Source of the DNA: a virus | Lineage: Duplodnaviria; Caudoviricetes | Virus record (IMG/VR): IMGVR_UViG_3300029288_006559 | Location: 1-64,000 of that record | Length of the DNA: 64,000 nt | Strand: one strand, 5' to 3' | In this document: positions 9,450-30,337 of the stretch, piece by piece | Layout: each line of letters starts with the position of its first letter | Position numbering within the stretch: the stretch's first letter is position 1 | The notes under the pieces: model-generated | Database searches by the model: none | Seen by the model: only the letters and a program-made list of their open reading frames with translations | Told to the model about the DNA's origin: nothing | Made by a program: the position numbers and the translations under genes

Positions 9450-11924
9450 GTGGATAAAACAAAAGTTCTTCTTATCAGTGACTCCATTCAACGTCCTACT
9501 GGAGTTGCTATACAATCCCTTAAATTGTGTGAGGGTCTTTTAAAAACAGGTAAGTACCAAGTAATACAGATTGCAGGGGGGGACCGTTCTTCTCCTTCAG
9601 CTCCTATTTACTTCAAGGGAGTAAAACTTTATACTACTGAAAAGCCCTACGGTGATCCTCAATTACTTAGGTACATTATGGCAGCAGATAAGCCAGATAT
9701 TGTGATTGCTTTTTCTGATCCGAGATTTTTTACCTGGCTTTTTCAGATGGATAATGAAATAAGAGATAGAGCAAGGTTAGTTTTTTATCATACTTGGGAT
9801 AATTATCCTTTTCCGAAGTTTAACCTTCCCTGGTATGCTTCTTGTGATGAAGTAATCATGCTTTCTCACTTTTCTTACAATCTTATGCAGTCCAACGGTG
9901 TTAAGTGTAGGTGTATACCTCATGGAATGGACCCTACAGAATTTTATCCTCTTGACGAGGCGAGTGTTTCTAAAGCCCGACAAAACTTTATTGCTCAAAG
10001 TCATGCCAAGGGCCCCGTAAATTTTGTTATCTTTTGGAACAATAGAAATATTTACAGAAAGCGCCCAGGAGATGTTTTGTGGGCTTACAAATCTTTTTCA
10101 GAAAAGTATCCCGATTCAATGTTAGTTTTAAATACCGACATTGCAGATCGAGAGGGAATTGATTTGATGCACTTTATTGATGATCATCAAATTACTGCTC
10201 CCATTATTTTTAATCCCCAGAGAATTCCATCTCATCAATTAAATGTGTTATATAATATTTCTGATGTCACTGTTAATATAGCCCTCAATGAAGGTTTTGG
10301 ATTATGTGTCTTGCCTACTACTTCTATTTATACTGAAAATGGAATAAAAGAAATACAATATTTATCTTTACAAGATAGGGTATTGACTCATACAGGAAAT
10401 TATGAAAAAGTAACAAATATAATGCCTAGAGAAGCAGATGAAACAGTTATTGAAATTACACCTCGTTTTATTTCTATGCCTGTAACAATGTCTAAGAATG
10501 ATAAAGTTTTTGCTATAAAAGGAAAGACTTGTTTTCCTTCTCAAAAAAGACCCTGTTATCCTTATTGTAAAAAACAATTTCTCCCCCCAGGAAATTGTAA
10601 AAAGGTATTTGAAGATTATAAACCAGAATGGATTAATTCTACTGAATTAAAAAAAGGAGATATATTATTATTTCCTAAAGAAAAATTTATAGAAGAAAAC
10701 CCGGTAGAATTTGACTTAGCCGAATTTGGAGTATTTGATTATACTGAATCTTTTATACAACCTTATGGAAGTAGAGTAAAACAACTTCCCCGATATATTA
10801 TCGCTGATGAAGGATTATTTAGATTATTAGGTTATTATTTAGCTGAAGGATCTCATACTAATAATCAAATAGAATTTGCTTTTCATAAAAAAGAAAAATT
10901 TTATGGGGAAGACGTTATTTTTTTAATGCAAAAATATTTTGGATTAAACGATGCTATTGTTAGATATCATAATAATGTATTGTCTATTCGGTATACTAGT
11001 ATTATTTTGGTTGAATTTTTTACAAAATTACTTGGCGCAATAGGCCCGCAAAAAGAATTAAATTCTGTTTTATTTAATTCCCCGATTAATTTATTAAAAG
11101 AGCTTTTGAAAGGTTACTGGAGGGGGGATGGATGCTTTAGTGAAAATTCTTATTTGTTTAGCACTTCTTCTAAAAGATTAGCTTATCAAATATTTTTAAT
11201 TCTTCAACGATTTAATATTTTACCTTGTTTAAGAAAAAGTTTACATCAATCTGAAAAAGGTAATGCCTTAATGTATACTATTACTGGAGAAAGATCAGCA
11301 TTATATTATCTTGATGATAACAAACCTGAAGAAAATAATAGAAATGATATGTATTGGCAAGATGAAAATTATTTTTATGTTCCTATACGTAAAGTAAGAG
11401 AGTACCCTTATAGGGGATTGCTTTATGATATTACTGTGAATAATGATCATTCTTTTGCTGCAGAAGGAATGATTTTACATAATTGCGTGGCCGAATCACT
11501 GTGTGCAGGCACCCCTGTAATTGTTACAGAAACAGGAGGTATGATCGAGCAAGCAAGGGCGAAGATTCATCACTCAGCTGTAAGTTCTAAAACCGAGACA
11601 GATGGCAAAAGCTGTCCAGAGCATGATGAGATTATAGAATATGGTAGAGTTCTTCCTCCTGATGCAAGATCGATGTTCGGTACTATGGGGGCTCCTTATA
11701 TCTTTCAAGATATTGTAGATTCTTCTACTTTAGTGAAGGCTTTTGAGGAAGCTTATAAGAGAACTAAAGAAGGGGATTGGAAAAAAACTTTAGGACCTAT
11801 AGGAAGAGAACACATTATACAAAACTTTCACATTGATACCACTATTAAACTATGGGATGAATTGTTGCAAGAATTGATTAAAAAACCATCCTCTTATAAT
11901 CGGTGGTCTGTAACAACTATTTAG
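9450..11924 (+). CDS. GT4 (GT-B) glycosyltransferase with intein
   Basis: N-terminal LLISDS...TG; RKRP; EGFGL[intein]CVAESLCAGTPVI donor-binding motif. Confidence 0.9.
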   Translation: MDKTKVLLISDSIQRPTGVAIQSLKLCEGLLKTGKYQVIQIAGGDRSSPSAPIYFKGVKLYTTEKPYGDPQLLRYIMAADKPDIVIAFSDPRFFTWLFQMDNEIRDRARLVFYHTWDNYPFPKFNLPWYASCDEVIMLSHFSYNLMQSNGVKCRCIPHGMDPTEFYPLDEASVSKARQNFIAQSHAKGPVNFVIFWNNRNIYRKRPGDVLWAYKSFSEKYPDSMLVLNTDIADREGIDLMHFIDDHQITAPIIFNPQRIPSHQLNVLYNISDVTVNIALNEGFGLCVLPTTSIYTENGIKEIQYLSLQDRVLTHTGNYEKVTNIMPREADETVIEITPRFISMPVTMSKNDKVFAIKGKTCFPSQKRPCYPYCKKQFLPPGNCKKVFEDYKPEWINSTELKKGDILLFPKEKFIEENPVEFDLAEFGVFDYTESFIQPYGSRVKQLPRYIIADEGLFRLLGYYLAEGSHTNNQIEFAFHKKEKFYGEDVIFLMQKYFGLNDAIVRYHNNVLSIRYTSIILVEFFTKLLGAIGPQKELNSVLFNSPINLLKELLKGYWRGDGCFSENSYLFSTSSKRLAYQIFLILQRFNILPCLRKSLHQSEKGNALMYTITGERSALYYLDDNKPEENNRNDMYWQDENYFYVPIRKVREYPYRGLLYDITVNNDHSFAAEGMILHNCVAESLCAGTPVIVTETGGMIEQARAKIHHSAVSSKTETDGKSCPEHDEIIEYGRVLPPDARSMFGTMGAPYIFQDIVDSSTLVKAFEEAYKRTKEGDWKKTLGPIGREHIIQNFHIDTTIKLWDELLQELIKKPSSYNRWSVTTI
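10305..11483 (+). mobile_element. intein (393 aa) with LAGLIDADG homing endonuclease in GT4
   Basis: Starts CVLPTT, ends MILHN|C; LLGYYLAEGS and LLKGYWRGDG motifs. Confidence 0.92.
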
Positions 11925-19827: not shown

Positions 19828-20531
19828 TGATTAAAATTGCCGTTATACATCCATCGTTTCAGAGAGCAGATCAATGTGCCGCTTGTTTTTCAAGGTGGCA
19901 AGCAGCCGCGGACGATCCATCTCAAATTGAGTATTTGATTGCCTTAGATGCTGTTGATCCTACTTTACATAAATACTTTGAAGCTTTTTCTTACAAACCT
20001 TCTTTTATGAGTGTTGGAAGATTTGTTATAGACGTAGGAGATTCTACAGATTGTGTAAAGGCTGGTTATAGGGTAAGTAAAAGTATTTCTCTTACGACGG
20101 AATTGTTATATCAAAATTCAGATGATGTTTATCCTTGCGAACATTGGGATACCTTATTACTAGAAGCTTTAAAGGGAGTGGATAATTTTGTTACACCGAA
20201 AGCTTTAGCTGTAAATGATGGTTTTTGGGATACTCCTACTTCTTTTGTTTACGCTATTGCTAATAGAGCTTTGTATAATAAACTAGGTTATTTGATCTAT
20301 CCAGAATACAGTTCAATGTATAGTGATAATGATTTTACTGAAGTTTGGAATAAGCTAGGATGTACTATACATGCTCCTCATATTCAGTTTTTACACAAAC
20401 ATTACAGTAAAGGAGGAACGCCTTTTGACGAAACATATGCTCGTAGGAATAATCATGCTGAATTAGATAAAGGGCTAAAGATTTTAAATGCTCGTAGGCA
20501 ACGTAATTTTGATTTAGGAGATATAAAATGA
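19827..20531 (+). CDS. GT2-like glycosyltransferase
   Basis: HPS..R, SDD, YSDNDF, HKH motifs. Confidence 0.75.
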   Translation: MIKIAVIHPSFQRADQCAACFSRWQAAADDPSQIEYLIALDAVDPTLHKYFEAFSYKPSFMSVGRFVIDVGDSTDCVKAGYRVSKSISLTTELLYQNSDDVYPCEHWDTLLLEALKGVDNFVTPKALAVNDGFWDTPTSFVYAIANRALYNKLGYLIYPEYSSMYSDNDFTEVWNKLGCTIHAPHIQFLHKHYSKGGTPFDETYARRNNHAELDKGLKILNARRQRNFDLGDIK

Positions 20532-21544
20532 GAATATTAATTACTGGTATTACAGGCTTTGTAGGTTCACATATGGCTGATTATATATTACGACAGGCTC
20601 CAGAGGCTAAAATTTTTGCTTCTCGTAGGTGGAGGAGTAGAGAAGAAAACATTAGGTGTCTTTTATTTGATCCGAGAGTAAAGTTTGTAGAAGCCGACCT
20701 ACTTGATAGAAGAAGTTTATCTCTTCTCATTGAGGTATCTAAACCTGACTATGTATTTCATTTTGCAGCTCAAAGCTTTCCAGGGGCAAGTTTTCGTATT
20801 CCTGTAGTTACTTTAACAAACAACGGAATAGGAACTGTTAATTTATTAGAAGAGATATTACAGGCACGTGATAAAGGAATTTGTGATCCAGTAATTGTTT
20901 CTGTTAGTAGTTCTGAAGTTTATGGGATGCCAACTCCCGACGAAGTTCCTATAAAAGAAACGAATCCTATCAGAGCAGCTAATCCTTATAGTATATCAAA
21001 AGTTACACAAGATTTAATGAGCCAGTATTATCAAAAAGCTTTTGGATTAAAAATAATTATTACTCGAATGTTTAGCCATGAAGGGGAGAGAAGAGGAAAG
21101 GACTTTGCATTATCTAGTTTTGCTCGTCAAGTAGCTCTTCATGAAACAACTTATTTTTGCAAGACATGTTCTACGAAGATAGACAAGTATAGTATAAGGG
21201 TAGGTAATTTAAACTCTGTTCGTACCTATGCTCATATTGATGACGCTGTAAGAGCGTATTGGCTAGCCGCTACTCAAGGTACAATAGGGGAGATTTACAA
21301 TATAGGTGGAAAACACACGTGTAAGGTTGGGGATGCTTTGAATAATATTATATCAAAGAGTGAAATTCCAAAAGAGAATTTTGAAATTATTGTTGATCCT
21401 GCTCTTGTTCGCCCAACAGATATTACCCTTCAAATTCCTGATTGGTCTAAGTTTAAAGAAGCTACCGGATGGGAGCCTATTAAAACTTTAGATGATATTA
21501 CTCAAGATTTATTGAATTATTGGAGAAGGGAAGTTTCAAAATGA
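20528..21544 (+). CDS. gmd: GDP-mannose 4,6-dehydratase-type extended SDR
   Basis: TGITGFVG, HFAAQS, SSSEVYG, PYSISK, GNLNSVR. Confidence 0.8.
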   Translation: MRILITGITGFVGSHMADYILRQAPEAKIFASRRWRSREENIRCLLFDPRVKFVEADLLDRRSLSLLIEVSKPDYVFHFAAQSFPGASFRIPVVTLTNNGIGTVNLLEEILQARDKGICDPVIVSVSSSEVYGMPTPDEVPIKETNPIRAANPYSISKVTQDLMSQYYQKAFGLKIIITRMFSHEGERRGKDFALSSFARQVALHETTYFCKTCSTKIDKYSIRVGNLNSVRTYAHIDDAVRAYWLAATQGTIGEIYNIGGKHTCKVGDALNNIISKSEIPKENFEIIVDPALVRPTDITLQIPDWSKFKEATGWEPIKTLDDITQDLLNYWRREVSK

Positions 21545-22533
21545 AAAAAATACTAGTATGTGGTGCTAATGGGTTTATGGGGAGGAATATTGTAGAATAT
21601 TTTAACAATATTCTAGATTATGAAGTATACGGGACTTATTGTTTAGGTAAACCTATTGAGCAAAGTGTGTTATCCGGGGATCGTTTACTTGGAGTTGATT
21701 TAACCAAGAAAGGGCATGTAGAAGATATTTTTAAGAGAGTAAATCCCGATATTGTCATACAAGCAGCTGCTGTTACTTCTGGATCTAAAGACATTACAGA
21801 ACGCCCTTATATTCATACAACCGATAACGCTGTAATGAATTCTTTGATCCTCAGAGCTTGTTATGAGCATTCCGTCAAACATTTCTTATTTCTTAGCTGC
21901 GGTGTGATGTACCAGCCGGGGGATGAACCTAGAAAAGAATCTGATTTTAATGAGCACGATGAACTACACAGAAATTATTTCGGTGTAGGGTGGACGAAAA
22001 TTTATATTGAAAAAATGTGTGAGTTTTATTCGCGCCTAGGGCGAACAAAGCATACTGTGATTCGTCATTCTAATACATATGGCCCTTACGATAAGTACGA
22101 CTTAGAGAAGTCCCATGTGTTTGGAGCCACTGTTAGAAAAGTTATGGATGCTAAAGATGGGGATACTATTACCGTATGGGGAAATGGAGAAGATACTGCA
22201 AGAGATTTAATCTATGTTGAGGATGTTACGAGGTTTATAGAAAATGCTATAGACTTACAACAATCTTCTTTTGAGCTTGTAAATGTCTCTTATGGAAGAG
22301 CTATTACAGTTAGAGAAATGGTAGAAGCTATAATTTTTCATTCTAATAAGGATTTAAAAATTAATTACGATACTTCAAAACCTTCTATCCCTACAAAGTT
22401 AGTACTTGATCGGGAGAAGGCTAGCAAGTTATTCAAATGGCATCCTAGAGTATCCTTTCAGGATGGTGTTTTTAGAACAATTAAGTGGTATAAAGATTAT
22501 TATGGAATAAAGAAATATGGATCTGAAACTTAA
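21541..22533 (+). CDS. GDP-fucose-synthase-like NDP-sugar epimerase (Tyr-less)
   Basis: GANGFMG, NTYGPYD, SHV, VWGNG; VGWTK at the YxxxK position. Confidence 0.8.
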   Translation: MKKILVCGANGFMGRNIVEYFNNILDYEVYGTYCLGKPIEQSVLSGDRLLGVDLTKKGHVEDIFKRVNPDIVIQAAAVTSGSKDITERPYIHTTDNAVMNSLILRACYEHSVKHFLFLSCGVMYQPGDEPRKESDFNEHDELHRNYFGVGWTKIYIEKMCEFYSRLGRTKHTVIRHSNTYGPYDKYDLEKSHVFGATVRKVMDAKDGDTITVWGNGEDTARDLIYVEDVTRFIENAIDLQQSSFELVNVSYGRAITVREMVEAIIFHSNKDLKINYDTSKPSIPTKLVLDREKASKLFKWHPRVSFQDGVFRTIKWYKDYYGIKKYGSET

Positions 22534-23278
22534 AGCAAAACAATTAAGAACCAAAATGCTTACGACCGCTTCTAATGTAGGAAGAGGGCATCTCGGAGGA
22601 GCTTTGTCTTGTACGGATATTTTGATAGCTCTTTATTATCAAGATTTTCTTAAAAACAATAATTTTGTTCTAAGTAAAGGGCATTCTGCTATTGCTCTTT
22701 ATACTATATTAAATGATTTAGGAAAACTCGCTCCTTACGATTTATCGTATTTTTGTCAAAACGGAAGCGTTTTGGCTGAACATCCTAGTATATTGATTCC
22801 AGGAGTAGTAGCTACTACAGGTTCTCTCGGGCACGGGTTAGGAATTGCAACAGGGATGGCGTTAGCTGATAAGTTAGCTGAAAATAATAGAAAAACTTAT
22901 GTACTCGTTGGAGATGGAGAGTGTAATGAAGGGTCTATTTGGGAAGCAGTTCAATTTGCAGCTGAGCAAGAACTAGGTAATCTTCATATGATTATAGATC
23001 GTAATGGATTGAGATCAACAGATGAAGATAGAAGATATGATTTACAAAATATTTTATCATCTTTTGGGTGGTTTACTACTATAGTAAATGGACATGATTA
23101 TAAAGATTTAACAGAAGCTTTTACGTATGTTCCTATTCCTCCTTTTAGGCGTCCTAGAGCTTATATTGCATACACAACAAAAGGTAAAGGTATTTCTTTT
23201 ATGGAAAATGATGTACGTTGGCATAATGGAGTACCAAAGGGAATTTTATTACAAAAAGCTTTGCAGGAGCTTTTATGA
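22517..23278 (+). CDS. transketolase N-terminal (ThDP-binding) subunit
   Basis: GHLGG, SKGHS, TGSLGHG, GDGECNEGSIWEA...DRN, TKGKG. Confidence 0.92.
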   Translation: MDLKLKAKQLRTKMLTTASNVGRGHLGGALSCTDILIALYYQDFLKNNNFVLSKGHSAIALYTILNDLGKLAPYDLSYFCQNGSVLAEHPSILIPGVVATTGSLGHGLGIATGMALADKLAENNRKTYVLVGDGECNEGSIWEAVQFAAEQELGNLHMIIDRNGLRSTDEDRRYDLQNILSSFGWFTTIVNGHDYKDLTEAFTYVPIPPFRRPRAYIAYTTKGKGISFMENDVRWHNGVPKGILLQKALQELL

Positions 23279-24198
23279 ACGACTTGAGAGATGAATTTTT
23301 TGATGAGCTGGTTTTTTTAGCAAAAAATAATTCAAACGTTATTCTTTTAACAGCTGATATGGGAGCTCAAGGTTTGGAGAAGTTTCAAAAAGAACTTCCA
23401 AAGCAATTTTTCAACGTAGGTATTTCTGAACAAAATTTGATAAGCGTTGCTGCTGGTCTTGCTTTAGCTGGAAAGAAAGTTTATGTGTACACTATTTCTG
23501 CTTTTCTTATTCAAAGGGCTTTAGACCAAATTAAAGTTGATCTCTGCGGAATGAATTTACCCGTAACACTAGTAGGTGTAGGCGGGGGAATTTCATATAC
23601 ATATGATGCTTTTACTCATCATATTCCTCAAGATATTGCTATTATGAACTCTCTTCCTAACATGACCATTCGTTGTCCTTATGATATCGAAACTACTCGT
23701 CAAAGTGTTCTTCTTACTTTCACAAGCAAATCTCCATGTTATATCAGACTTGAAAAGGGAGATTTGCTTAATCTAAGTGTTTTGTCTAAAATTGAAGGTA
23801 TAAATATTTTTTTGCGGGGTGACGCTTGTACTGTTATAACATACGGTCGTTTGATTCATAAAATTCTTCCTATTGCATGTCATACTACAATTACAGGGGG
23901 ATCTGTAGGTTGTATGGGAATAGAGAGAATAAAACCTTTTCCAGAAGAAGTTTTTATTGAACAAATTAAAAATGTTGAGCATTTAATTATTGTTGAAGAA
24001 CATTCTCGAATTGGTGGACTTGGTTCTATTATTAGTGAAATACTAGTGAGAAGAAATATATCAAAAAAAGTTTCTTTTTATAATCTTGAAGATAAGGTTT
24101 GTAACCTTTCTGGGGATGAAGATTTTATTTATTCGTATTATGGTTTAAACTTAAAAAAACTTCGAACAGATATTTTTGAGGAGGTAATAAAGAAATGA
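23275..24198 (+). CDS. transketolase C-terminal subunit
   Basis: NVGISEQN, RALDQI, THH, EEHSRIGGLG. Confidence 0.92.
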   Translation: MNDLRDEFFDELVFLAKNNSNVILLTADMGAQGLEKFQKELPKQFFNVGISEQNLISVAAGLALAGKKVYVYTISAFLIQRALDQIKVDLCGMNLPVTLVGVGGGISYTYDAFTHHIPQDIAIMNSLPNMTIRCPYDIETTRQSVLLTFTSKSPCYIRLEKGDLLNLSVLSKIEGINIFLRGDACTVITYGRLIHKILPIACHTTITGGSVGCMGIERIKPFPEEVFIEQIKNVEHLIIVEEHSRIGGLGSIISEILVRRNISKKVSFYNLEDKVCNLSGDEDFIYSYYGLNLKKLRTDIFEEVIKK

Positions 24199-24680
24199 AA
24201 ATTAATCTAGGATGTGGTATGAACAAGTTACCAGGATTTGTTAATATAGATGCAAATCCTTCTTTCGCACCCGATAGGATTGAAGATGTTCGTAATATTG
24301 TTTTTGCTCCCAATTCTATCGATGAAGTAGCTTTTTCTCATGTGTTAGAGCATCTTCCAAAATCATTTTATGAAGAGATATTAAAAAGAATTTATTCATG
24401 GTTAAAACCAGGGGCAAAACTCTATATATCTGTACCTGATTTACCTAAAGTATGTGAAGCATATTTAAGAACGAAAGATCCGTTTTTGCTTTTTTGGATA
24501 TATGGATCCGGGGAAGAGGATAGAATGTCTCATTGTTGGGGTTTCGATACAAACTCTTTACATACTCTTTTAACCCAAATTGGGTTTGCCTATACAGAGG
24601 ATTTTCCCGGTCTTGGGGGGGACTCTTCTTTTGTTTATGATGGAGTTCTTTTGTCTATAAACAGGATATATCAAAAGTGA
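24195..24680 (+). CDS. SAM-dependent methyltransferase (type 11-like)
   Basis: NLGCG, SHVLEH, LKPG...VPD. Confidence 0.88.
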   Translation: MKINLGCGMNKLPGFVNIDANPSFAPDRIEDVRNIVFAPNSIDEVAFSHVLEHLPKSFYEEILKRIYSWLKPGAKLYISVPDLPKVCEAYLRTKDPFLLFWIYGSGEEDRMSHCWGFDTNSLHTLLTQIGFAYTEDFPGLGGDSSFVYDGVLLSINRIYQK

Positions 24681-25399
24681 AAGACGTAAGCGTAATTGTT
24701 TCTTCAATTCGACCGGAGTATTGGGATAGGTTTTATAGATCTATTTCTAATTGTAAAGCGGATTTTGAAGTCATCTTTGTAGGACCAACTCCAGATGGAC
24801 CTCTTCCTAGATGTAGATATGTACAAACATCCGTAAAACCTTCACAATGTTGGCACATTGCTATTAGTCAAGCAGAATCAGATAGAATTTTTCTTATTGG
24901 AGATGATTTTTTCTTTTCAGAACATTTGCTTGACAAATTTCTTCAGCAAGTAAGTGAAGCAGGTGAGAATTTTATTGCAAGTTGTGAGATACGTTGTGGT
25001 GGGAAAGCAGTACCTGCACAACATTATTTCTTTGATTGGAGAAATAGTCTGGGACCTAAAGCCGTATATGGGGTTATGTTTAGTAAGAAATATTACTTTG
25101 AAGTAGGAGGATTTGATTCTTCATTTATTGCTTTATACATGGATTGGGATTTGATAGAAAGATTAAGAAGAATAGGTGCGAAGGAGATTTTTATTTCGGA
25201 TTGTTTTGTAGATGAATCTTGTGAAGTTAGATTAACCACAAGATTAAATGAAACTGATTTTGCTTATTTGCTCGATTGCTGGCTTGACGGCGATAAAATA
25301 CGTGAACAGAGGAAGCATCCTATAATACCTTTCACTGAAAAAGATATTTTAATACTTTCACAAGGACCTAAAAGTATTCCTGGAAGGGAATGGGTATAA
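24677..25399 (+). CDS. GT2-like glycosyltransferase
   Basis: VSVIVSSIR, IGDD, GGFD, YMDWD. Confidence 0.75.
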   Translation: MKDVSVIVSSIRPEYWDRFYRSISNCKADFEVIFVGPTPDGPLPRCRYVQTSVKPSQCWHIAISQAESDRIFLIGDDFFFSEHLLDKFLQQVSEAGENFIASCEIRCGGKAVPAQHYFFDWRNSLGPKAVYGVMFSKKYYFEVGGFDSSFIALYMDWDLIERLRRIGAKEIFISDCFVDESCEVRLTTRLNETDFAYLLDCWLDGDKIREQRKHPIIPFTEKDILILSQGPKSIPGREWV

Positions 25400-25402
25400 A
25401 TT

Positions 25403-26107
25403 ATGTCATGGACAGATTTTAAGGCTATTGAAACTTTTTGTAAGTTAAGAGATGAATTCAATATTAATTATTTTATAGAAACAGGAACCTTTAGAGCTCA
25501 AGGAGCTCGTGTAATGTCTTCTTTTTTTAAAGATGTATTTTCGTGTGAAATAAATTTGGATTATTGTATTGTAGCAAGAAAGAATACGGAAGATATTCCC
25601 AATGTTAGGATATTTTTAGAAGATAGTACTGTCTTTCTTAAAGCACTTTCTAGAATATTTTATGATCCTGTATTTTATTATTTAGATGCTCATTTCTACG
25701 ATTCTAAACTACCGAAGGAAGAGAGATTTACAATAAAAAGAGAATTAGAGGCTATAAAATCTTCAAAAAATTGTGTGATTGCTATTCACGATTTCGATAC
25801 GCGTAATGGTTTGGGTCATTTAGTATACGATGGTATTCCCCTCGATTTTGAAGTTGTAAAGGAAGGTTTAAGGAAAATTAATCCTGATTTTGTATTTTAT
25901 ACAAATTACAAAGAAGCTTGTAAAATTGTAATTCAAGACGATATAGCTACGGGTAAGCTTCCTCATCTAACGTTAACTTCTGATATGAAAGATTCTTTAG
26001 ACTTTATTTGGTCAGATCCTTTTAAAACATATAGGGGTATTTTATATTGTGTTCCTAAAGAATTAGATTTAACTAAATACGAATTACATAAGGTAGATTG
26101 GAAATGA
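25403..26107 (+). CDS. methyltransferase-like protein
   Basis: FIETGT, SCEI, YLDAH, IHDF. Confidence 0.7.
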   Translation: MSWTDFKAIETFCKLRDEFNINYFIETGTFRAQGARVMSSFFKDVFSCEINLDYCIVARKNTEDIPNVRIFLEDSTVFLKALSRIFYDPVFYYLDAHFYDSKLPKEERFTIKRELEAIKSSKNCVIAIHDFDTRNGLGHLVYDGIPLDFEVVKEGLRKINPDFVFYTNYKEACKIVIQDDIATGKLPHLTLTSDMKDSLDFIWSDPFKTYRGILYCVPKELDLTKYELHKVDWK

Positions 26108-26844
26108 AGATTAAACAAGCTATTGTAACAGGAGGGACACATGGCATCGGGTTGGCAATTGTAAAACAACTTGTAGAAGAAGGGTATTCTGTAATTACTG
26201 CATCTAGAAACGCCCCTAGTATAGAAATGAAAAATACTTTTCATTTCCCCACAGATTTTACTACTGAAAAAGGCATAAATCGTTTTATTGATTTTCTTTA
26301 TGACAATAATAATAATTATACTAAAGCGAGTGTATTGATAAATAACGTAGGCGGAGGAGGAAGATGGGGGAAAGAAAATACTTTGGCTACAGATGAATAT
26401 ATTTGGCAAGAGGTTTGGAATAAGAATTATCAAATTGCTCGTAAATTAACTCTTGCTGTGCTACCTTATATGAAACAAGAAAATTGGGGAAGAGTAATTA
26501 CGGTGTCTTCTATTTATGGAAAAGAGGCGGGAGGAAGACCTTGGTTTACCGTTGCTAAAGCAGCTGAGATTGCTTTAATGAAATCTTTTGCAAAATGTAA
26601 AGATCTTGTTAGACATGGTATTACATTTAATACCGTTTGTCCAGGAGCTATTTATATTCCAGGTACTGGATGGGACAATATGTCAGGCATAGATAAGATA
26701 GAATTCGAAGATTCATTACCTATAGGAAGAATGGGTAGTCCTGAAGAAGTGGCTAGTGTAGTGAAGTTTCTTTGTTCAAATGAAGCTTCTTTTGTTAACG
26801 GAGCTTGTATTACAGTGGATGGGGGAGAAAGTAGGAGTTTTTAG
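26104..26844 (+). CDS. classical SDR oxidoreductase (FxxxK variant)
   Basis: TGGTHGIG, NNVGG, WFTVAK, GRMG.PEE, VDGG. Confidence 0.88.
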   Translation: MKIKQAIVTGGTHGIGLAIVKQLVEEGYSVITASRNAPSIEMKNTFHFPTDFTTEKGINRFIDFLYDNNNNYTKASVLINNVGGGGRWGKENTLATDEYIWQEVWNKNYQIARKLTLAVLPYMKQENWGRVITVSSIYGKEAGGRPWFTVAKAAEIALMKSFAKCKDLVRHGITFNTVCPGAIYIPGTGWDNMSGIDKIEFEDSLPIGRMGSPEEVASVVKFLCSNEASFVNGACITVDGGESRSF

Positions 26845-26846
26845 GC

Positions 26847-27464
26847 ATGACAGATCATACAGTAGAATCTTTAAAAGCTTTTGAAGATAAGGTAATAAAA
26901 CACTTTGAAGCAGGCAAGATCCGAGGACCAGTACATTTATCTCGTGGTAATGAAGAGGCTTTAATTGAAATTTTTAAAGATATAGATTCAGATGACTGGG
27001 TATTTTCTACTTGGCGCAATCACTACCACGCCTTACTACATGGAATTTCAGAAGAGTGGTTAATGAAAGAAATTCTTGCTGGCAGAAGTATTAATATTAA
27101 CAATGCAGAACATCATTTCTACACTTCCGCAATTGTAGGAGGGATTATTCCAATTGCACTAGGGGTAGCAAAAGCTTTAAAGATAAAAGCAGTATCTAAC
27201 AAAGTTTGGTGCTTCATAGGAGATATGACTTATCGTACAGGTATTTTTACAGAGGTGAATAGATATGCCCGTAATTTTGAGTTGCCTATTAATTTCGTAG
27301 TTGAAGATAATAATTTTAGTACTAATACTCCTACAGATGAGTGTTGGAAACTCTCTCGTAATACCTTATTAGAAAACAAGGTCATAAGAGAAGGTAATCT
27401 TTATTATTATCAATACACTCGGCAATTTCCTCATGTAGGTATAGGAAAGTTTGTTCATTTCTAA
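26847..27464 (+). CDS. truncated pyruvate dehydrogenase E1 alpha-like ThDP enzyme
   Basis: GPVHLSRGNE, WRNHYH, SAIVGG, GD...EDNN. Confidence 0.85.
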   Translation: MTDHTVESLKAFEDKVIKHFEAGKIRGPVHLSRGNEEALIEIFKDIDSDDWVFSTWRNHYHALLHGISEEWLMKEILAGRSININNAEHHFYTSAIVGGIIPIALGVAKALKIKAVSNKVWCFIGDMTYRTGIFTEVNRYARNFELPINFVVEDNNFSTNTPTDECWKLSRNTLLENKVIREGNLYYYQYTRQFPHVGIGKFVHF

Positions 27465-27475
27465 GAGAGGTTATT

Positions 27476-28006
27476 ATGAAGTATTTCGATGAACTTGTGA
27501 GAGCTATGGATATGTTGGCTACACATCCTAAAGTTATTTTTTTAGGACAATCGGTTGTCTGGGATGGGCATGCTCTGTTTAAAACATTAAGAAACATTCC
27601 TATAGAGAAAAGGTTAGAAATGCCTGTAGCTGAAGACATGCAGATGGGATTTTCTACAGGATTAGCCTTAGAAGGATTTATTCCAGTATCTATTTTTCCA
27701 CGCTGGGATTTTCTACTCTTAGCTATGAACCAAATGGTGAATCACTTAGATAAAGTTCCTTTATTAGGCAGTATGACGCCTAAAGTTATTATTAGGACCT
27801 CTATTGGAAGTAAGAAACCTTTAAATCCAGGCTTGCAGCATTGTCAGGATTATACAGAAGCTGTTAAAAAAATGGTAACTACATTAGATGTTATTGATCT
27901 TACTGAACCAGAGCAGATTTATCCTTCTTACGAGAAAGCTTTAAATCGTCTTGATAGATGTTCGACGTTATTAGTAGAGCATATGGATTTTTATAATGAA
28001 AAATAG
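27476..28006 (+). CDS. truncated pyruvate dehydrogenase E1 beta-like subunit
   Basis: LGQSV, EMPVAE, AMNQMVN, QH; lacks the C-terminal domain. Confidence 0.85.
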   Translation: MKYFDELVRAMDMLATHPKVIFLGQSVVWDGHALFKTLRNIPIEKRLEMPVAEDMQMGFSTGLALEGFIPVSIFPRWDFLLLAMNQMVNHLDKVPLLGSMTPKVIIRTSIGSKKPLNPGLQHCQDYTEAVKKMVTTLDVIDLTEPEQIYPSYEKALNRLDRCSTLLVEHMDFYNEK

Positions 28007-28098: not shown

Positions 28099-29094
28099 AT
28101 GATTCCGCAAAGAGTATTAGAATCTTTTACCGGTAAATATTGTTTAGTTACTGGGGGCACCGGCTTAATAGGTAGACAAGTTGTTGAGATCTTGTCAAAA
28201 GCTGGAGCCAATGTAGATGTTGTTTCTTTGGATTTTATTGATTTAGGTTTACCTAATGTAGAAACATATCGATGTGATCTTAGACAACCTGATGTTTGTC
28301 GAGATCTTGTTACTGGGTGTGATTACGTATTTCACTTGGCGGGTGTCAAGGGCTCTGTAGAAGTAACTAAATCAAAACCAGCTAGTTTTTTCGTTCCTTT
28401 GTTGCAGTTTAATACCAACGTTTTAGAAGCTTGCAAAGAGCTCAGAGTCGAAAAGGTGATATATACTAGTTCTATCGGAGCTTACGAAAGCGCAGAGGTG
28501 TTTGTAGAAGGAGATATTACGCAAGGACCTCCTATGGATCTTTTTCCCGGATGGGCCAAACGTATGGCGGAGCTGCAAATTCAAGCTTATAAAATACAAC
28601 ATGGTTTGAATAATTTTACAGTTGTTAGACCTTGCAACGTTTACGGACCGGGGGATAATTTTGATCCTGAAAATGCAATGTTTATACCTTCTCTTATGTC
28701 CAAAATTCATAGAGGAGATAACCCTGTTATGATCTGGGGAGATGGAACTGTTATTAGAGATTTTGCTTTTAGTAGAGATGTAGCTGAAGGAATTATTTTA
28801 GCTTTGTATTACCAACCCGATGTGCCTTATCTAAATTTAGGGAGTGGGGTGGGAGTTTCTGTAAAGGAGTTGGTAGAGACAATGAATAGAGTAGTTTCTT
28901 TTAATTATAAATTTGATATTACTAAACCTTCAGGATTTCCAAAAAGAGTTATGAATATTGAAAAAGCGATGAAGTTAATAGATTACAATCCTATAACTAC
29001 TCTTGAACAAGGATTGAGAGAAACATGGGAATGGTTTATAAAGAATGAAGAAGAATATAAACAAAGAAAAAATTATTTTTCTGAGGAGGAATAA
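28099..29094 (+). CDS. NAD-dependent NDP-sugar epimerase, Fcl-like (Tyr-less)
   Basis: TGGTGLIG, NVYGPGDNF, WGDG; PGWAK at the YxxxK position. Confidence 0.85.
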   Translation: MIPQRVLESFTGKYCLVTGGTGLIGRQVVEILSKAGANVDVVSLDFIDLGLPNVETYRCDLRQPDVCRDLVTGCDYVFHLAGVKGSVEVTKSKPASFFVPLLQFNTNVLEACKELRVEKVIYTSSIGAYESAEVFVEGDITQGPPMDLFPGWAKRMAELQIQAYKIQHGLNNFTVVRPCNVYGPGDNFDPENAMFIPSLMSKIHRGDNPVMIWGDGTVIRDFAFSRDVAEGIILALYYQPDVPYLNLGSGVGVSVKELVETMNRVVSFNYKFDITKPSGFPKRVMNIEKAMKLIDYNPITTLEQGLRETWEWFIKNEEEYKQRKNYFSEEE

Positions 29095-29360: not shown

Positions 29361-29897
29361 ATGAAAATTATACCAACAAAATTTGAAAAGGCAAAGTTGA
29401 TTGAACTTCCTATATTTAGAGATTTTCGGGGAGATTACGTAGAAACTTATAATGAGAATTTTTATAAGGCTTTAGATGTACCTATGCCTTTTGTTCAGGA
29501 CAGTTTTTCTACATCCAGGAAAGATGTTTTAAGGGGGTTTCACGGGGATCCTTTAACATGGAAACTCATACAAGTAGTTTCAGGTGAAGTTTATGAGGTG
29601 ATAGTTGATTTGAATGAAAATAGTCCTACTTATCTAGAATGGGAAGCATTTATTATAGGAGAGAAAGATCGAAGACAGCTTCTAATCCCTCCAGGATTTG
29701 GTAATGCTATGTTGGCTTTAACGGATAATGTAGTTTATTACTATAAACAGACTACATATTATGGGCAGGCAAGACAATTTACTGTAAGATGGGATGATCC
29801 TACTTTGAAGGTTTTTTGGCCTATAGACAATCCCATATTATCAAAAAGGGATACTAAAGGGAAACAGGTTTATATTGGAGGAACAAAGCAAATATGA
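29361..29897 (+). CDS. rmlC: dTDP-4-dehydrorhamnose 3,5-epimerase (RmlC family)
   Basis: DFRG, VQDS.S.S, VLRGFH, IPPGFG, WDDP, LSKRD. Confidence 0.9.
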   Translation: MKIIPTKFEKAKLIELPIFRDFRGDYVETYNENFYKALDVPMPFVQDSFSTSRKDVLRGFHGDPLTWKLIQVVSGEVYEVIVDLNENSPTYLEWEAFIIGEKDRRQLLIPPGFGNAMLALTDNVVYYYKQTTYYGQARQFTVRWDDPTLKVFWPIDNPILSKRDTKGKQVYIGGTKQI

Positions 29898-30337
29898 GTA
29901 GTAGAGAATATTTACCTACGTTTGCGGAGCTTATCGATCGTCTTAGCATTGTTGTATTGAAGGAAGTTTTTGTTCCCGAAAATGCAGCTGCTTACAAAGA
30001 AGAACAAGAACTTATAATGCACGATATAGATGAGATTATTGAAACGCAATCGTGGACAGATCCTACAGACAAAAGGTGGCATATTAACGCTAAAATTATT
30101 CGTGCAATACTTATTTTGATGCTCACCAACCGGTATATCTGGGAAAACGAATCAAAAGCGCGGGCTGGAGGTGAAGATCAAGATAAACTTTTAAAGCTTA
30201 CGCATTCTATCAACGGTGTTCGAAACACTGCAAAGAATGTTATTGCTAAAGAACTTGGAGAGCGAGTTGATTTAAAAGTAGATTGTCTTGCGGAAGGGTT
30301 GGTAAAAGAATTTGGAAATTGGAATGTTTTTGAATAA
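29894..30337 (+). CDS. helical protein of glycan loci (DUF4254/DUF6165-like)
   Basis: ELIDRLSI..LK, N..IWENE..R, N..RN..KN.I. Confidence 0.6.
   Translation: MSSREYLPTFAELIDRLSIVVLKEVFVPENAAAYKEEQELIMHDIDEIIETQSWTDPTDKRWHINAKIIRAILILMLTNRYIWENESKARAGGEDQDKLLKLTHSINGVRNTAKNVIAKELGERVDLKVDCLAEGLVKEFGNWNVFE

What the first reader, a model, noticed from the sequence alone, without database searches (positions are those of the whole stretch)
22517..28006. Two different split ThDP carboligase pairs in one sugar locus
Seen: a transketolase N/C pair (253+307 aa) and a minimal PDH-E1 alpha/beta pair (205+176 aa; beta lacks its C-terminal domain), with no E2/E3 genes and an SDR directly upstream of the E1 pair. 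Inference: neither pair serves central metabolism. One could transfer a hydroxyacetyl unit from a ketose phosphate and the other an acetyl unit from pyruvate, onto NDP-keto-sugars, with the SDR acting on the side chain. Sequential action could give a doubly extended C8-C10 sugar.
Basis: partly seen in the sequence, partly recalled or inferred. Interest (0 to 1): 0.75.

Follow-up and report, generated by a model that had tools for sequence, protein, structure and literature searches.

The report
Phage sugar-tailoring thiamine enzyme pairs
An uncultured large phage carries, inside its sugar-building gene cluster, two different two-piece thiamine-dependent enzymes that are not copies of the cell's central-metabolism enzymes. 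Both belong to widespread, untested families that probably add two-carbon pieces to activated sugars.

Summary
A split transketolase-like pair (253+307 aa) and a minimal E1 alpha/beta pair (205+176 aa) lie in one co-directional sugar operon of a 134-kb phage record, which has no E2 or lipoyl gene.

Neither pair is housekeeping.
- The mini-E1 is a separate, deep clade with more than 5,500 homologues. It is sometimes fused into one ~400-aa protein, as in cyanophages S-SM2 and P-TIM68.
- It travels with an RmlC-type epimerase and nucleotide-sugar dehydratase/reductase genes in phages and in bacteria of many phyla.
- The TK-like pair belongs to a subfamily that keeps the cofactor and catalytic residues. 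It has Gly at two phosphate-binding positions of true transketolases and Lys at a third.
- 62 of 65 loci holding this subfamily also hold nucleotide-sugar genes.
- Both pairs recur together in 17 of those 65 loci.

The proposed chemistry matches known precedent from Streptomyces antibiotics: E1-type "alpha-KADH2" acetyl branching and split-TK hydroxyacetyl transfer. It is inferred here, not shown.

- The upstream SDR tracks the TK pair, not the E1 pair, and lacks the catalytic tyrosine.
- Nothing indicates sequential action on one sugar.

Verdict: new variants of a known kind, moderately interesting.

The parts
20528..21544 (+). Extended SDR, nucleotide-sugar 4,6-dehydratase-like. Probable maker of the 4-keto sugar.
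   Evidence: PF16363 E 2.3e-65. The NCBIfam best hit is dTDP-glucose 4,6-dehydratase at 134 bits, below its cut-off; Gmd, LegB and GalE score similarly, so the nucleotide is unresolved. Homologues in 29 of 103 E1-centred loci.
21520..22533 (+). Extended SDR, GDP-fucose-synthase-like epimerase/reductase. Overlaps the TK-N start.
   Evidence: PF01370 E 5.1e-38; NF047922 at 123 bits, below cut-off. An extended SDR is the most common named gene directly upstream of TK-N, level with B12-radical-SAM (12 of 88 each).
22517..23278 (+). TK-like N subunit (ThDP diphosphate-binding, PP domain).
   Evidence: PF00456. Best solved relative is the split TK of Carboxydothermus hydrogenoformans, 6YAK, E 1.9e-44. 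It keeps GDGE...D161-x-N163 and His25, His56, His89, His236; H25 and H236 are at least 95% conserved in 100 family members.
23275..24198 (+). TK-like C subunit (pyrimidine-binding domain + C-terminal domain).
   Evidence: PF02779 + PF02780; 6YAJ E 2.1e-34. R5, E52, D111 and H115 are kept. G30 replaces Ser386, G103 replaces His469 and K161 replaces Arg528 (yeast numbering). Among the 120 best homologues, Gly at the His469 position is invariant (120/120), Gly at the Ser386 position is in 109, and Lys at the Arg528 position is in 98, with Arg in the other 22.
24195..24680 (+). Short methyltransferase-like protein (161 aa).
   Evidence: PF13489 E 5.9e-9, matching only profile positions 70-162 of 164. 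One homologue in the related loci (L055).
24677..25399 (+). GT2-like protein (240 aa).
   Evidence: Weak PF10111 / EpsD matches. A homologue (k24) lies between the E1 pair and the TK pair in the closest related phage contigs, L105 and L111.
25403..26107 (+). Protein of unknown function (234 aa).
   Evidence: No Pfam, NCBIfam or PHROG hit. No homologue in the related loci.
26098..26844 (+). Atypical classical SDR (FabG-like fold) that travels with the TK-like pair.
   Evidence: PF13561 / PF00106. Phe150 sits where the catalytic Tyr of YxxxK should be. The GGGGRWG and RPWF motifs are conserved across the family. Homologues lie beside TK pairs in L002, L004 and L007 and in 10 of 65 TK-centred loci.
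26847..27464 (+). Mini-E1 alpha (PP domain only, 205 aa).
   Evidence: PF00676, profile positions 5-171 of 300. ThDP/Mg motif G125-D126-M127...E153-D154-N155, and a C-terminal P195-H196-x-G-x-G motif that is invariant. More than 5,500 homologues of 194-230 aa. Own clade, SH-aLRT 100, stem length 3.4.
27476..28006 (+). Mini-E1 beta (Pyr domain only, 176 aa).
   Evidence: Weak PF02779 match and no PF02780. The cofactor-activating Glu53 and His122 (the position of the catalytic beta-His, by the alignment to 1ik6) are invariant. Present in 92 of 103 alpha-centred loci. Natural alpha-beta fusions exist.
28099..29094 (+). Extended SDR, GDP-fucose-synthase-like. Core partner of the mini-E1 module.
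   Evidence: PF01370 E 1.6e-44; NF047922 at 147 bits, below cut-off. Homologues in 83 of 103 E1-centred loci.
29361..29897 (+). RmlC-type cupin (NDP-4-keto-6-deoxy-sugar 3,5-epimerase). Core partner of the mini-E1 module.
   Evidence: PF00908 E 5.1e-46. TIGR01221 at 142 bits against a cut-off of 156. Homologues in 82 of 103 loci, and usually directly upstream of E1 alpha in viral loci.
29894..30337 (+). Conserved 147-aa protein of unknown function (DUF4254 / DUF6165-like).
   Evidence: Homologues in 38 of 103 E1-centred loci and 14 of 65 TK-centred loci. About 50 positions are at least 95% conserved. The nearest Atlas clusters are almost all viral.

Best explanation
Both pairs are dedicated nucleotide-sugar tailoring enzymes of the phage's glycan cassette, not central-metabolism enzymes.

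Shown:
- Each pair keeps a complete ThDP site.
- Each belongs to its own widespread family, and that family is embedded in nucleotide-sugar loci of phages and bacteria.
- Mini-E1 alpha and beta belong together as one enzyme.

Inferred, by analogy with the alpha-KADH2 and split-TK branching enzymes of antibiotic pathways:
1. The locus's 4,6-dehydratase and RmlC-type epimerase make an NDP-4-keto-6-deoxy sugar from a host sugar nucleotide.
2. The mini-E1 decarboxylates pyruvate (or a similar 2-oxo acid) on ThDP and adds the C2 acyl unit to the sugar's keto carbon. This gives a C-acetyl branch and a tertiary alcohol.
3. With no E2-binding domain and no E2, the ThDP-bound unit is passed to a carbon acceptor rather than to lipoamide.
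4. The TK-like pair forms dihydroxyethyl-ThDP from a ketol donor. That donor is probably not a sugar phosphate, and hydroxypyruvate is a candidate. The pair then transfers the hydroxyacetyl unit to a keto or aldehyde sugar.
5. Its travelling partner, the atypical SDR (an aldo-keto reductase in other loci), then processes the new carbonyl.

The two modules are separable and may act on different sugars.
For: Mini-E1:
- ThDP/Mg motif, beta Glu53 and beta His122 are invariant in the family.
- More than 5,500 homologues and 112 clusters at E<1e-30.
- Monophyletic and far from both housekeeping and full-length sugar-locus E1 alpha.
- Genomes that carry it also carry full-length E1 alpha.
- Natural alpha-beta fusions of about 400 aa: P0271, P0316, P0360, phrog_34187 and cyanophage S-SM2 SSM2_198.
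- Alpha-beta complex model: score 0.88, best of 3 controls 0.00. The mark was reached by 58 of 80 solved complexes and 2 of 110 mismatched pairs. Runs agree in 100% of contacts, and partner pLDDT is at least 92. The pass may reflect memory of solved E1 tetramers.
- Co-occurrence across 103 loci: beta 92, GFS-like SDR 83, RmlC cupin 82.
- No E2 or lipoyl gene in the record.

TK-like pair:
- TK catalytic His residues and Glu are kept. The phosphate-site residues are changed family-wide.
- Its clade is separate from the TK and DXS of the same genomes.
- 62 of 65 loci hold nucleotide-sugar genes, and a reductase lies directly downstream in 11 of 88.
- In the window it is translationally coupled to the dehydratase and an SDR.

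Both pairs together:
- E1 alpha occurs in 17 of 65 TK-centred loci.
- The closest related phage contigs, L105 and L111, hold the same gene set in a different order.

Precedent: PMC12247030, PMC4753412 and PMC9306805.
Against: - No activity, substrate or product is known for either family. The chemistry rests on analogy and neighbourhood.
- Mini-E1 lacks the alpha C-terminal third that holds a catalytic His in full-length E1. The conserved P-H-x-G-x-G tail as its replacement is conjecture.
- About a quarter of loci, and cyanophage S-SM2, carry heptose-activation genes (GmhA-like SIS, GHMP kinase, HddC, HldE parts) next to these enzymes. An APH-kinase::mini-E1 alpha fusion also exists. Both are compatible with action at the sugar-phosphate level.
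- Some loci hold a YerE-type ThDP enzyme as well, so the ketone-branching role could belong to that enzyme instead.
- The travelling SDR lacks the catalytic Tyr.
- Trees used the quick method, with few housekeeping comparators and no AviB, Pau, KbDH or Mih sequences.
Confidence: 0.55

Rival explanations
1. Precursor-building role. The TK-like pair, and possibly the mini-E1, act on sugar phosphates before nucleotide activation. They would build sedoheptulose-7-P or a higher ketose phosphate such as octulose-8-P. A GmhA-like isomerase, a kinase, a phosphatase and a nucleotidyltransferase would then turn it into an NDP-heptose or NDP-octose. By my recollection this parallels the transaldolase-initiated lincosamide octose route; that was not looked up here.
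For: - Heptose-activation genes lie in the same loci: GHMP kinase 16 of 65, HddC 13 of 65, SIS 6 of 65 for TK-centred loci.
- Some bacterial E1 loci (SAR202/Chloroflexota) have the order HddC-SIS-E1 alpha-E1 beta-SDR-GHMP kinase; others have SIS-SDR-GHMP kinase-E1 alpha-E1 beta.
- S-SM2 has phosphoheptose isomerase and HldE-like genes around the fused mini-E1.
- An APH-kinase::mini-E1 alpha fusion exists.
- The best solved relative of the TK pair is a true split transketolase.
Against: - The subfamily lacks His469 and Ser386, which hold the substrate phosphate in true TKs.
- The held part of this phage has no isomerase, kinase, phosphatase or nucleotidyltransferase to use such a product.
- Most loci lack them too.
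- A pyruvate-derived 1-deoxy-ketose could not be isomerised to an aldose.
- Bacterial hosts of the pair already have a full TK.
Confidence: 0.2
2. The mini-E1 is a non-branching ThDP enzyme. It could be a DXS-like chain extender that adds C2 to a sugar aldehyde (for example an NDP-hexodialdose). Or it could be a plain 2-oxo-acid decarboxylase supplying an aldehyde or side-chain building block.
For: - It keeps only the two cofactor domains, as minimal decarboxylases do.
- Weak DXP_synthase_N matches.
- A DegT aminotransferase lies directly downstream in several bacterial loci. That fits transamination of a new ketone or aldehyde.
- YerE-type enzymes co-occur in some loci.
Against: - The tightest partners are the RmlC cupin and 4-keto-sugar SDRs (82-83 of 103 loci), which points to a 4-keto acceptor.
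- All characterised or proposed sugar-pathway E1-type enzymes branch ketones.
- Transamination of the acetyl branch is itself known, in kibdelomycin.
Confidence: 0.15
3. First reader's specific version. Both pairs act one after the other on the same NDP-keto sugar, giving a doubly extended or doubly branched C8-C10 sugar, with the upstream SDR reducing the E1-installed side chain.
For: - The pairs recur together in 17 of 65 TK-centred loci and 4 bacterial E1-centred loci.
- The whole set is kept, in a different order, in L105 and L111.
Against: - Each pair mostly occurs alone.
- The SDR tracks the TK pair and lacks the catalytic Tyr.
- The window has at least seven glycosyltransferase-like genes, so several different sugars are likely.
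Confidence: 0.07
4. Housekeeping or auxiliary central-metabolism genes: a pentose-phosphate transketolase and a PDH E1 that boost host metabolism during infection.
For: Pfam names. TK and E1 catalytic cores are kept.
Against: - All scores are far below the curated NCBIfam cut-offs: 204 against 488, 113 against 488, 94 against 394.
- Separate clades.
- Truncated E1 with no E2-binding domain and no E2.
- Altered phosphate site.
- Sugar-operon context.
Confidence: 0.03

Closest known systems
alpha-KADH2 sugar-branching enzymes (E1 alpha/beta type): AviB1/AviB2 (avilamycin), Pau11/Pau12 (paulomycin), the aldgamycin and kosinostatin enzymes, and KbDH-alpha/beta (kibdelomycin, tested in vitro). Sources: PMC12247030, PMC4753412.
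   Same: - Two-subunit E1-type ThDP enzyme with no E2.
- Sits among deoxysugar genes (4,6-dehydratase, epimerase, reductases).
- Expected pyruvate donor and keto-sugar acceptor.
   Different: - Here alpha has 205 aa and beta 176 aa. The alpha C-terminal third and the whole beta C-terminal domain are missing.
- It forms its own deep clade, apart even from the full-length E1 pairs (about 330 + 350 aa) found in related sugar loci.
- It is sometimes fused into one chain.
- It is found in phages and in environmental bacteria of many phyla, not in actinomycete antibiotic clusters.
- It was not compared directly with AviB, Pau or KbDH sequences, because none were available through the tools.
Split-gene transketolases proposed to transfer a hydroxyacetyl unit to a keto sugar in miharamycin and amipurimycin biosynthesis (PMC12247030, section 2.3).
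   Same: - Separate N and C genes.
- Placed directly after keto-sugar-forming oxidoreductases.
- TK catalytic histidines are kept, which fits a ketol donor.
   Different: - The review lists 13 such genes, all from Streptomycetes and none characterised.
- Here the subfamily has thousands of members (2,505 hits at E<=1e-5) in phages and uncultured bacteria.
- It has a defined Gly / Gly / Lys-or-Arg signature at the TK phosphate site.
- Sequence relationship to the Streptomyces genes was not tested.
Canonical split transketolase (Carboxydothermus hydrogenoformans, PDB 6YAK / 6YAJ).
   Same: Best solved relative of both subunits (E 1.9e-44 and 2.1e-34). Same domain split, ThDP motif, catalytic His residues and Glu.
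   Different: In the printed alignment the Carboxydothermus enzyme has Ser, His and Arg where the phage protein has Gly30, Gly103 and Lys161. The context here is a nucleotide-sugar operon, not the pentose-phosphate pathway.
YerE-type (acetolactate-synthase-fold) sugar-branching enzymes: YerE, ErwE, MygE (PMC9306805).
   Same: Same proposed overall reaction: ThDP-mediated acyl addition to an NDP-4-keto-deoxysugar, followed by side-chain reduction.
   Different: - Different fold: one chain of about 560 aa with three domains.
- A YerE-like gene is absent from the window. It lies directly upstream of the TK-like pair in 6 of 88 related TK pairs.
Cyanophage S-SM2 SSM2_198 and its P-TIM68 homologue ('transketolase central region-containing protein'; phrog_34187, unknown function).
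   Same: Same mini-E1 family (43% identity to alpha). Lies in a phage heptose / nucleotide-sugar cluster.
   Different: Alpha and beta are fused into one 402-aa protein. Its neighbours include heptose-activation genes that the window lacks. The annotation gives no function.

Membership tests
Housekeeping 2-oxo-acid dehydrogenase E1 (heterotetrameric alpha2beta2; PDH, BCKDH, acetoin DH) | Alpha PP domain with a GDG-X(25-30)-N ThDP/Mg motif | tested here: met
   G125-D126-M127...E153-D154-N155. It aligns to the motif of human E1 alpha and is invariant in the family.
Housekeeping 2-oxo-acid dehydrogenase E1 (heterotetrameric alpha2beta2; PDH, BCKDH, acetoin DH) | Beta Pyr domain with the cofactor-activating Glu | tested here: met
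   Glu53 in PVAEDMQMG aligns with the conserved Glu of E1 beta structures and is invariant.
Housekeeping 2-oxo-acid dehydrogenase E1 (heterotetrameric alpha2beta2; PDH, BCKDH, acetoin DH) | Full-length alpha (about 320-370 aa), including the C-terminal region with the regulatory loops and catalytic His | tested here: not met
   205 aa. Covers profile positions 5-171 of 300 and human residues 45-209 of 365. The family median is 210 aa.
Housekeeping 2-oxo-acid dehydrogenase E1 (heterotetrameric alpha2beta2; PDH, BCKDH, acetoin DH) | Beta C-terminal domain (PF02780), which docks E2 | tested here: not met
   No PF02780 match. 176 aa; the family median is 181 aa.
Housekeeping 2-oxo-acid dehydrogenase E1 (heterotetrameric alpha2beta2; PDH, BCKDH, acetoin DH) | E2 (lipoyl acyltransferase) partner encoded | tested here: not met
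   PF00198 and PF00364 are absent from the 134-kb record. The record is about 73% complete.
Housekeeping 2-oxo-acid dehydrogenase E1 (heterotetrameric alpha2beta2; PDH, BCKDH, acetoin DH) | Reaches the curated family score and groups with housekeeping E1 alpha | tested here: not met
   TIGR03182 scores 93.6 bits against a cut-off of 393.85. It is a separate clade, SH-aLRT 100.
Sugar-branching alpha-KADH2 (AviB1/B2, Pau11/12, KbDH-alpha/beta) | Two-subunit E1-type enzyme inside a deoxysugar gene set with a 4-keto-sugar maker | tested here: met
   4,6-dehydratase-like SDR, RmlC cupin and GFS-like SDRs lie in the operon and in 82-92 of 103 related loci.
Sugar-branching alpha-KADH2 (AviB1/B2, Pau11/12, KbDH-alpha/beta) | Sequence kinship with the characterised members | not tested
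   No AviB, Pau or KbDH sequence could be obtained through the tools. The only proxy is full-length E1 pairs from related sugar loci, and they form a different clade.
Sugar-branching alpha-KADH2 (AviB1/B2, Pau11/12, KbDH-alpha/beta) | Pyruvate-dependent C2 addition to a keto sugar | not testable with these tools
   Needs an enzyme assay.
Transketolase (EC 2.2.1.1), including canonical split TK | ThDP motif, catalytic His pair (yeast His30 / His263) and Glu418 | tested here: met
   H25, H236, GDGE...D-x-N and E52.
Transketolase (EC 2.2.1.1), including canonical split TK | Substrate-phosphate site: Arg359, Ser386, His469, Arg528 (yeast numbering, from my own knowledge of TK structures) | tested here: not met
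   R5 is kept; Gly30, Gly103 and Lys161 occupy the other three positions. Gly at the His469 position is in 120 of 120 homologues.
Transketolase (EC 2.2.1.1), including canonical split TK | Reaches the curated family score and groups with the TK of the same genomes | tested here: not met
   NF004559 scores 204 and 113 bits against a cut-off of 488. The TK-like clade is separate from TK and DXS (SH-aLRT 84; the window lies inside a clade with support 97). Canonical split TKs were not in the tree.
Split-gene sugar-branching TK (miharamycin / amipurimycin type) | Split N/C genes next to a keto-sugar-forming oxidoreductase in a sugar pathway | tested here: met
   Overlapping genes: dehydratase, SDR, TK-N, TK-C. 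62 of 65 loci have nucleotide-sugar genes.
Split-gene sugar-branching TK (miharamycin / amipurimycin type) | Sequence kinship with the Streptomyces genes; hydroxyacetyl transfer to a ketone | not tested
The activity is unproven even for the Streptomyces enzymes.

The most novel reading that the evidence does not exclude
The mini-E1 would be a minimal two-domain ThDP carboligase: about 380 aa in two chains, or one fused chain. It would be the commonest sugar C-branching enzyme in nature, shared between aquatic bacteria and their phages, cultured cyanophages included. Together with a phosphate-independent transketolase-like enzyme, it would let phages build C-branched or chain-extended sugars that no structure database yet lists. 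In this phage the two would modify one sugar in turn.
Probability: 0.2. Interest if true: 0.75.

Novelty: new variant of a known kind. Interest (0 to 1): 0.55.

Why it matters
- ThDP enzymes that put carbon branches on sugars are known from a few Yersinia-type O-antigens and from actinomycete antibiotics. The split-TK class is reported as 13 uncharacterised Streptomyces genes, and the E1 class as about 120 clusters (PMC12247030).
- This locus shows that both classes, in stripped-down or altered forms, are common in phage and environmental bacterial glycan loci. If the inference holds, unusual branched or extended sugars are widespread on aquatic bacteria or their phages, where they could affect phage-host recognition.
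- The mini-E1 would also be a compact carboligase scaffold of interest for biocatalysis of tertiary alcohols.
- Cultured cyanophages (S-SM2, P-TIM68) that carry the fused form make the question testable.

Tried and rejected
Contexts came from the search for related loci instead.
- Megablast of 12 kb against GenBank phages found nothing.
- The search for related loci with TK-C as a single protein found nothing in viral contigs. It worked with an alignment.
- Literature searches for a TK or E1 pair in O-antigen or heptose loci gave nothing relevant. Two search calls failed on term syntax.
- Krug et al. 2024 and Romo et al. 2019 are not held. The precedent is therefore cited from the review only.
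- tblastn of the neighbour families against the whole phage record found no SIS isomerase, GHMP kinase, nucleotidyltransferase or HAD phosphatase. The idea that the phage builds its own NDP-heptose was dropped for this record, which is incomplete.
- Rejected, housekeeping or AMG role: see the rival explanations.
- Rejected, the mini-E1 as a decayed remnant: family-wide invariant catalytic residues and thousands of homologues of the same length argue against it.
- Rejected, the TK-like pair as a DXS: the N subunit keeps the TK His set, and the C subunit has Gly where DXS has Arg.
- TK-C hits in GenBank 'phage' records are at most 33% identical and come mostly from unannotated faecal or Listeria contigs. 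They were not used.

Full report
**Setting.** The window is the first 64 kb of a 134,292-base IMG/VR virus record, about 73% complete by CheckV. Nearly all of its long ORFs, and every gene assigned here, are on the + strand. The window encodes phage replication genes: a DnaB-like helicase, a PolA-type polymerase, class II RNR, a sigma factor, RNA ligase and GroEL. From about 9450 to 30337 lies a run of glycosyltransferases, methyltransferases and nucleotide-sugar enzymes.

**Observation.**
- TK-N (253 aa) matches PF00456.
- TK-C (307 aa) matches PF02779 + PF02780.
- The E1 alpha-like protein (205 aa) matches PF00676, but only profile positions 5-171 of 300.
- The E1 beta-like protein (176 aa) gives a weak PF02779 match and no PF02780.

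So beta lacks its C-terminal domain, as stated, and alpha lacks its C-terminal third as well. No E2 or lipoyl domain is in the record. The classical SDR ends 3 nt before E1 alpha.

**The mini-E1 is a large family of its own.**
- A protein search gave more than 5,500 hits. The 120 best are all 193-233 aa long and 54-87% identical.
- An exhaustive search of 50%-identity representatives gave 112 clusters at E<1e-30.
- Related loci were recovered from 23 bacterial genomes: SAR202/Chloroflexota, Pelagibacteraceae, SAR116, Gammaproteobacteria, Methylopumilus, Flavobacteriaceae, Actinomycetota, Verrucomicrobiota and Desulfosudaceae. A further 179 viral contigs matched, of which 80 were fetched.
- In a tree, all 53 mini-alpha sequences form one clade (SH-aLRT 100, stem 3.4 substitutions per site). 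It is separate from four housekeeping E1 alpha sequences of the same bacterial genomes, and from ten full-length (about 330 aa) E1 alpha proteins found in related sugar loci. Bacterial and viral rows are intermixed.
- Bacterial genomes with the mini form also have full-length E1 alpha scoring 200-350 bits against PF00676. Their mini copies score 40-65 bits.

**The mini-E1 looks catalytically whole.**
- The ThDP/Mg motif G125-D126-M127...E153-D154-N155 is invariant in the family, as is a series of alpha residues (H30, N35, E36, W56, R57, H59, Y60, H61).
- Beta Glu53 (the cofactor activator) and beta His122 are also invariant. By the alignment to PDB 1ik6, His122 sits at the place of the catalytic beta-His.
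- A C-terminal alpha motif, P195-H196-x-G-x-G, is invariant too. Whether it substitutes for the missing alpha C-terminal His is conjecture.

**Alpha and beta belong together.**
- Beta is present in 92 of 103 alpha-centred loci.
- The two genes are adjacent in 21 of 21 bacterial loci. In 62 of 68 viral loci they are separated, by a median of 4.6 kb.
- Natural fusions of about 400 aa exist: E1_dh followed by Transket_pyr in P0271, P0316 and P0360.
- A single PHROG of unknown function, phrog_34187 (405 positions), covers alpha at positions 4-200 and beta at 237-402.
- A complex model scored 0.88, with the best of 3 controls at 0.00. The mark was reached by 58 of 80 solved complexes and 2 of 110 mismatched pairs. 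The runs agree in 100% of contacts, and the partner's pLDDT is at least 92. Because E1 tetramers are solved, this pass may only reflect likeness to them.

**What travels with the mini-E1.** Counts are out of 103 loci.
- GDP-fucose-synthase-like extended SDR (window 28099-29094): 83.
- RmlC-type cupin (29361-29897): 82.
- The 147-aa protein (29894-30337): 38.
- 4,6-dehydratase-like SDR: 29.
- TK pair: only 4.
- The classical SDR: only 3.

Bacterial loci read GmhA-like SIS, SDR, GHMP kinase, E1 alpha, E1 beta, DegT aminotransferase, often with an HddC-like nucleotidyltransferase. Viral loci add radical-SAM enzymes, 2OG oxygenases, a carbamoyltransferase, HldE-like parts and GT7/LamG proteins.

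The cultured cyanophages S-SM2 and P-TIM68 carry the fused form. In S-SM2 it is SSM2_198, annotated 'transketolase central region-containing protein'. It lies among nucleotide-sugar epimerases, heptose kinase/adenylyltransferase, phosphoheptose isomerase and a capsule gene.

The held part of the present phage has none of the activation genes. It would have to start from a host sugar nucleotide.

**The TK-like pair.**
- Its best solved relatives are the two chains of the split transketolase of Carboxydothermus hydrogenoformans (6YAK E 1.9e-44; 6YAJ E 2.1e-34).
- The N subunit keeps the ThDP motif and the TK histidines. H25 and H236 are at least 95% conserved in 100 family members.
- The C subunit keeps R5, E52, D111 and H115.
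- In the printed alignment it has Gly30, Gly103 and Lys161 where the Carboxydothermus enzyme has Ser, His and Arg. From my own knowledge of TK structures, these are yeast Ser386, His469 and Arg528, which hold the substrate phosphate.
- Among the 120 best homologues, Gly at the His469 position is invariant. Gly at the Ser386 position occurs in 109, and Lys at the Arg528 position in 98, with Arg in the rest.
- The full-length TKs of genomes that also carry the pair have His and Arg there, and DXS has Arg at the His469 column.
- Those genomes hold a 669-688-aa TK and a DXS besides the pair.
- In a tree, all 40 sampled TK-like C subunits, the window's copy and the genomic copies from sugar loci fall in one group (SH-aLRT 84). 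The window lies inside a clade with support 97. The group is apart from TK and DXS.
- Canonical split TKs could not be added to the tree. That comparison rests on the pairwise alignment alone.

**Context of the TK-like subfamily.** 65 loci of at least 10 kb hold both subunits (37 viral, 28 metagenomic). Of these, 62 hold nucleotide-sugar genes.

| Neighbour | Loci (of 65) |
|---|---|
| Extended SDR | 46 |
| B12-radical SAM | 27 |
| RmlC cupin | 22 |
| E1 alpha-like | 17 |
| GHMP kinase | 16 |
| Aldo-keto reductase | 14 |
| HddC | 13 |
| The atypical classical SDR | 10 |
| YerE/ALS-type ThDP enzyme | 7 |

- Directly upstream of TK-N, the commonest named genes are an extended SDR and a B12-radical-SAM enzyme (12 of 88 each). 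A YerE-like gene is there in 6.
- Directly downstream of TK-C, an aldo-keto reductase (6) or the atypical SDR (5) recurs.
- In the window the pair overlaps the preceding SDR and follows the dehydratase.

**The two pairs together.**
- The E1 partner of the TK pair is either the mini form (alpha about 210 aa, beta about 185 aa) or a full-length pair (about 330 + 350 aa).
- The closest related phage contigs, L105 and L111 (TK-C 49% identical), carry this order: E1 alpha, E1 beta, GT (like 24677), SDR, TK-N, TK-C, one gene, atypical SDR, SDR, cupin, SDR. That is the window's gene set in another order.
- Four bacterial E1-centred loci (L002, L004, L007, L023; Chloroflexota and Gammaproteobacteria) have the TK pair a few genes away. 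In three of them the atypical SDR lies beside the TK pair.
- So 'two ThDP pairs in one sugar locus' is a recurring arrangement, but each pair is more often found alone.

**The SDR.** It is FabG-like in fold, but Phe150 occupies the catalytic Tyr of YxxxK. The family conserves unusual GGGGRWG and RPWF motifs. It is tied to the TK pair, not to E1.

**Comparison with what is known.** A 2025 review (PMC12247030) lists three ThDP enzyme classes that branch keto sugars.
- YerE-like decarboxylase-fold enzymes (see also PMC9306805).
- E1-type 'alpha-KADH2' pairs: aldgamycin, avilamycin AviB1/B2, paulomycin Pau11/12 and kibdelomycin KbDH-alpha/beta, the last tested in vitro. They use pyruvate only and make C2 branches at C3 or C4. 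About 120 clusters are known (see also PMC4753412).
- Split-gene TKs proposed to transfer a hydroxyacetyl unit in miharamycin and amipurimycin biosynthesis. There are 13 genes, all from Streptomycetes, and none is characterised.

Four things are new here:
- a truncated, sometimes fused E1 form with its own clade;
- a TK-like subfamily with a defined change at the phosphate site;
- their abundance in phages and in uncultured bacteria of many phyla;
- their recurrent co-occurrence.

**Limits.**
- No activity is shown.
- The trees are quick searches with few comparators.
- No AviB, Pau, KbDH or Mih sequences were available.
- The record is incomplete.
- The frequent neighbourhood of heptose-activation genes keeps a sugar-phosphate-level role open as a rival.

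**Verdict.** These are new variants of a known kind, of moderate interest.

Noticed in passing
window 26098-26844: The FabG-like SDR has Phe150 at the catalytic Tyr position (N-S-F-K instead of N-S-Y-K). Its family conserves the unusual motifs NNVGGGGRWG and GGRPWF. It may not be an ordinary ketoreductase.
   Followed up: partly
window 29894-30337: A 147-aa protein with about 50 near-invariant positions travels with the mini-E1 and TK modules (38 of 103 and 14 of 65 loci). Only faint DUF4254 / DUF6165 likeness, and the nearest Atlas clusters are almost all viral. Function unknown.
   Followed up: partly
L292:8992-10200 (Synechococcus phage S-SM2, SSM2_198): A cultured cyanophage carries a fused alpha-beta mini-E1 (402 aa) inside a heptose / nucleotide-sugar cluster. 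Prochlorococcus phage P-TIM68 has one too. These are ready experimental systems.
   Followed up: partly
L238:5110-6798 and five other loci: A YerE/acetolactate-synthase-type ThDP enzyme lies directly upstream of the TK-like pair, followed by an aldo-keto reductase and a 253-aa unknown protein. Some loci (L110, L150) thus hold three ThDP enzyme classes at once.
   Followed up: partly
L063:8573-9982 and many viral loci: A 469-aa protein with no Pfam or NCBIfam hit occurs in 71 of 103 mini-E1 loci, often two or three copies per locus. It commonly lies between E1 alpha and E1 beta.
   Followed up: no
proteins P0275, P0272, P0357: Some mini-E1 alpha homologues carry an intein (P0275). P0272 has a LAGLIDADG-type domain in an extra N-terminal region. 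P0357 is fused to an APH-type kinase domain.
   Followed up: no
window 9450-11924: The 824-aa glycosyltransferase matches a GT PHROG at residues 5-288. At 451-717 it matches families typical of intein / homing-endonuclease inserts, so it may be an intein-bearing GT.
   Followed up: no
window 55199-59029: The 1,276-aa DNA polymerase has polymerase matches from residue 439 on. Its N-terminal part (39-313) gives endonuclease- and RNR-intein-like matches, so it may carry an intein.
   Followed up: no
window 24195-24680: The 161-aa methyltransferase-like protein matches only the second half of the methyltransferase profiles (positions 70-162 of 164). It is either a very short form or a truncated gene.
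   Followed up: no
viral loci L025-L104: In phages, E1 alpha and E1 beta are usually split apart by about 4.6 kb of other sugar genes (62 of 68 loci). In bacteria they are always adjacent (21 of 21).
   Followed up: yes
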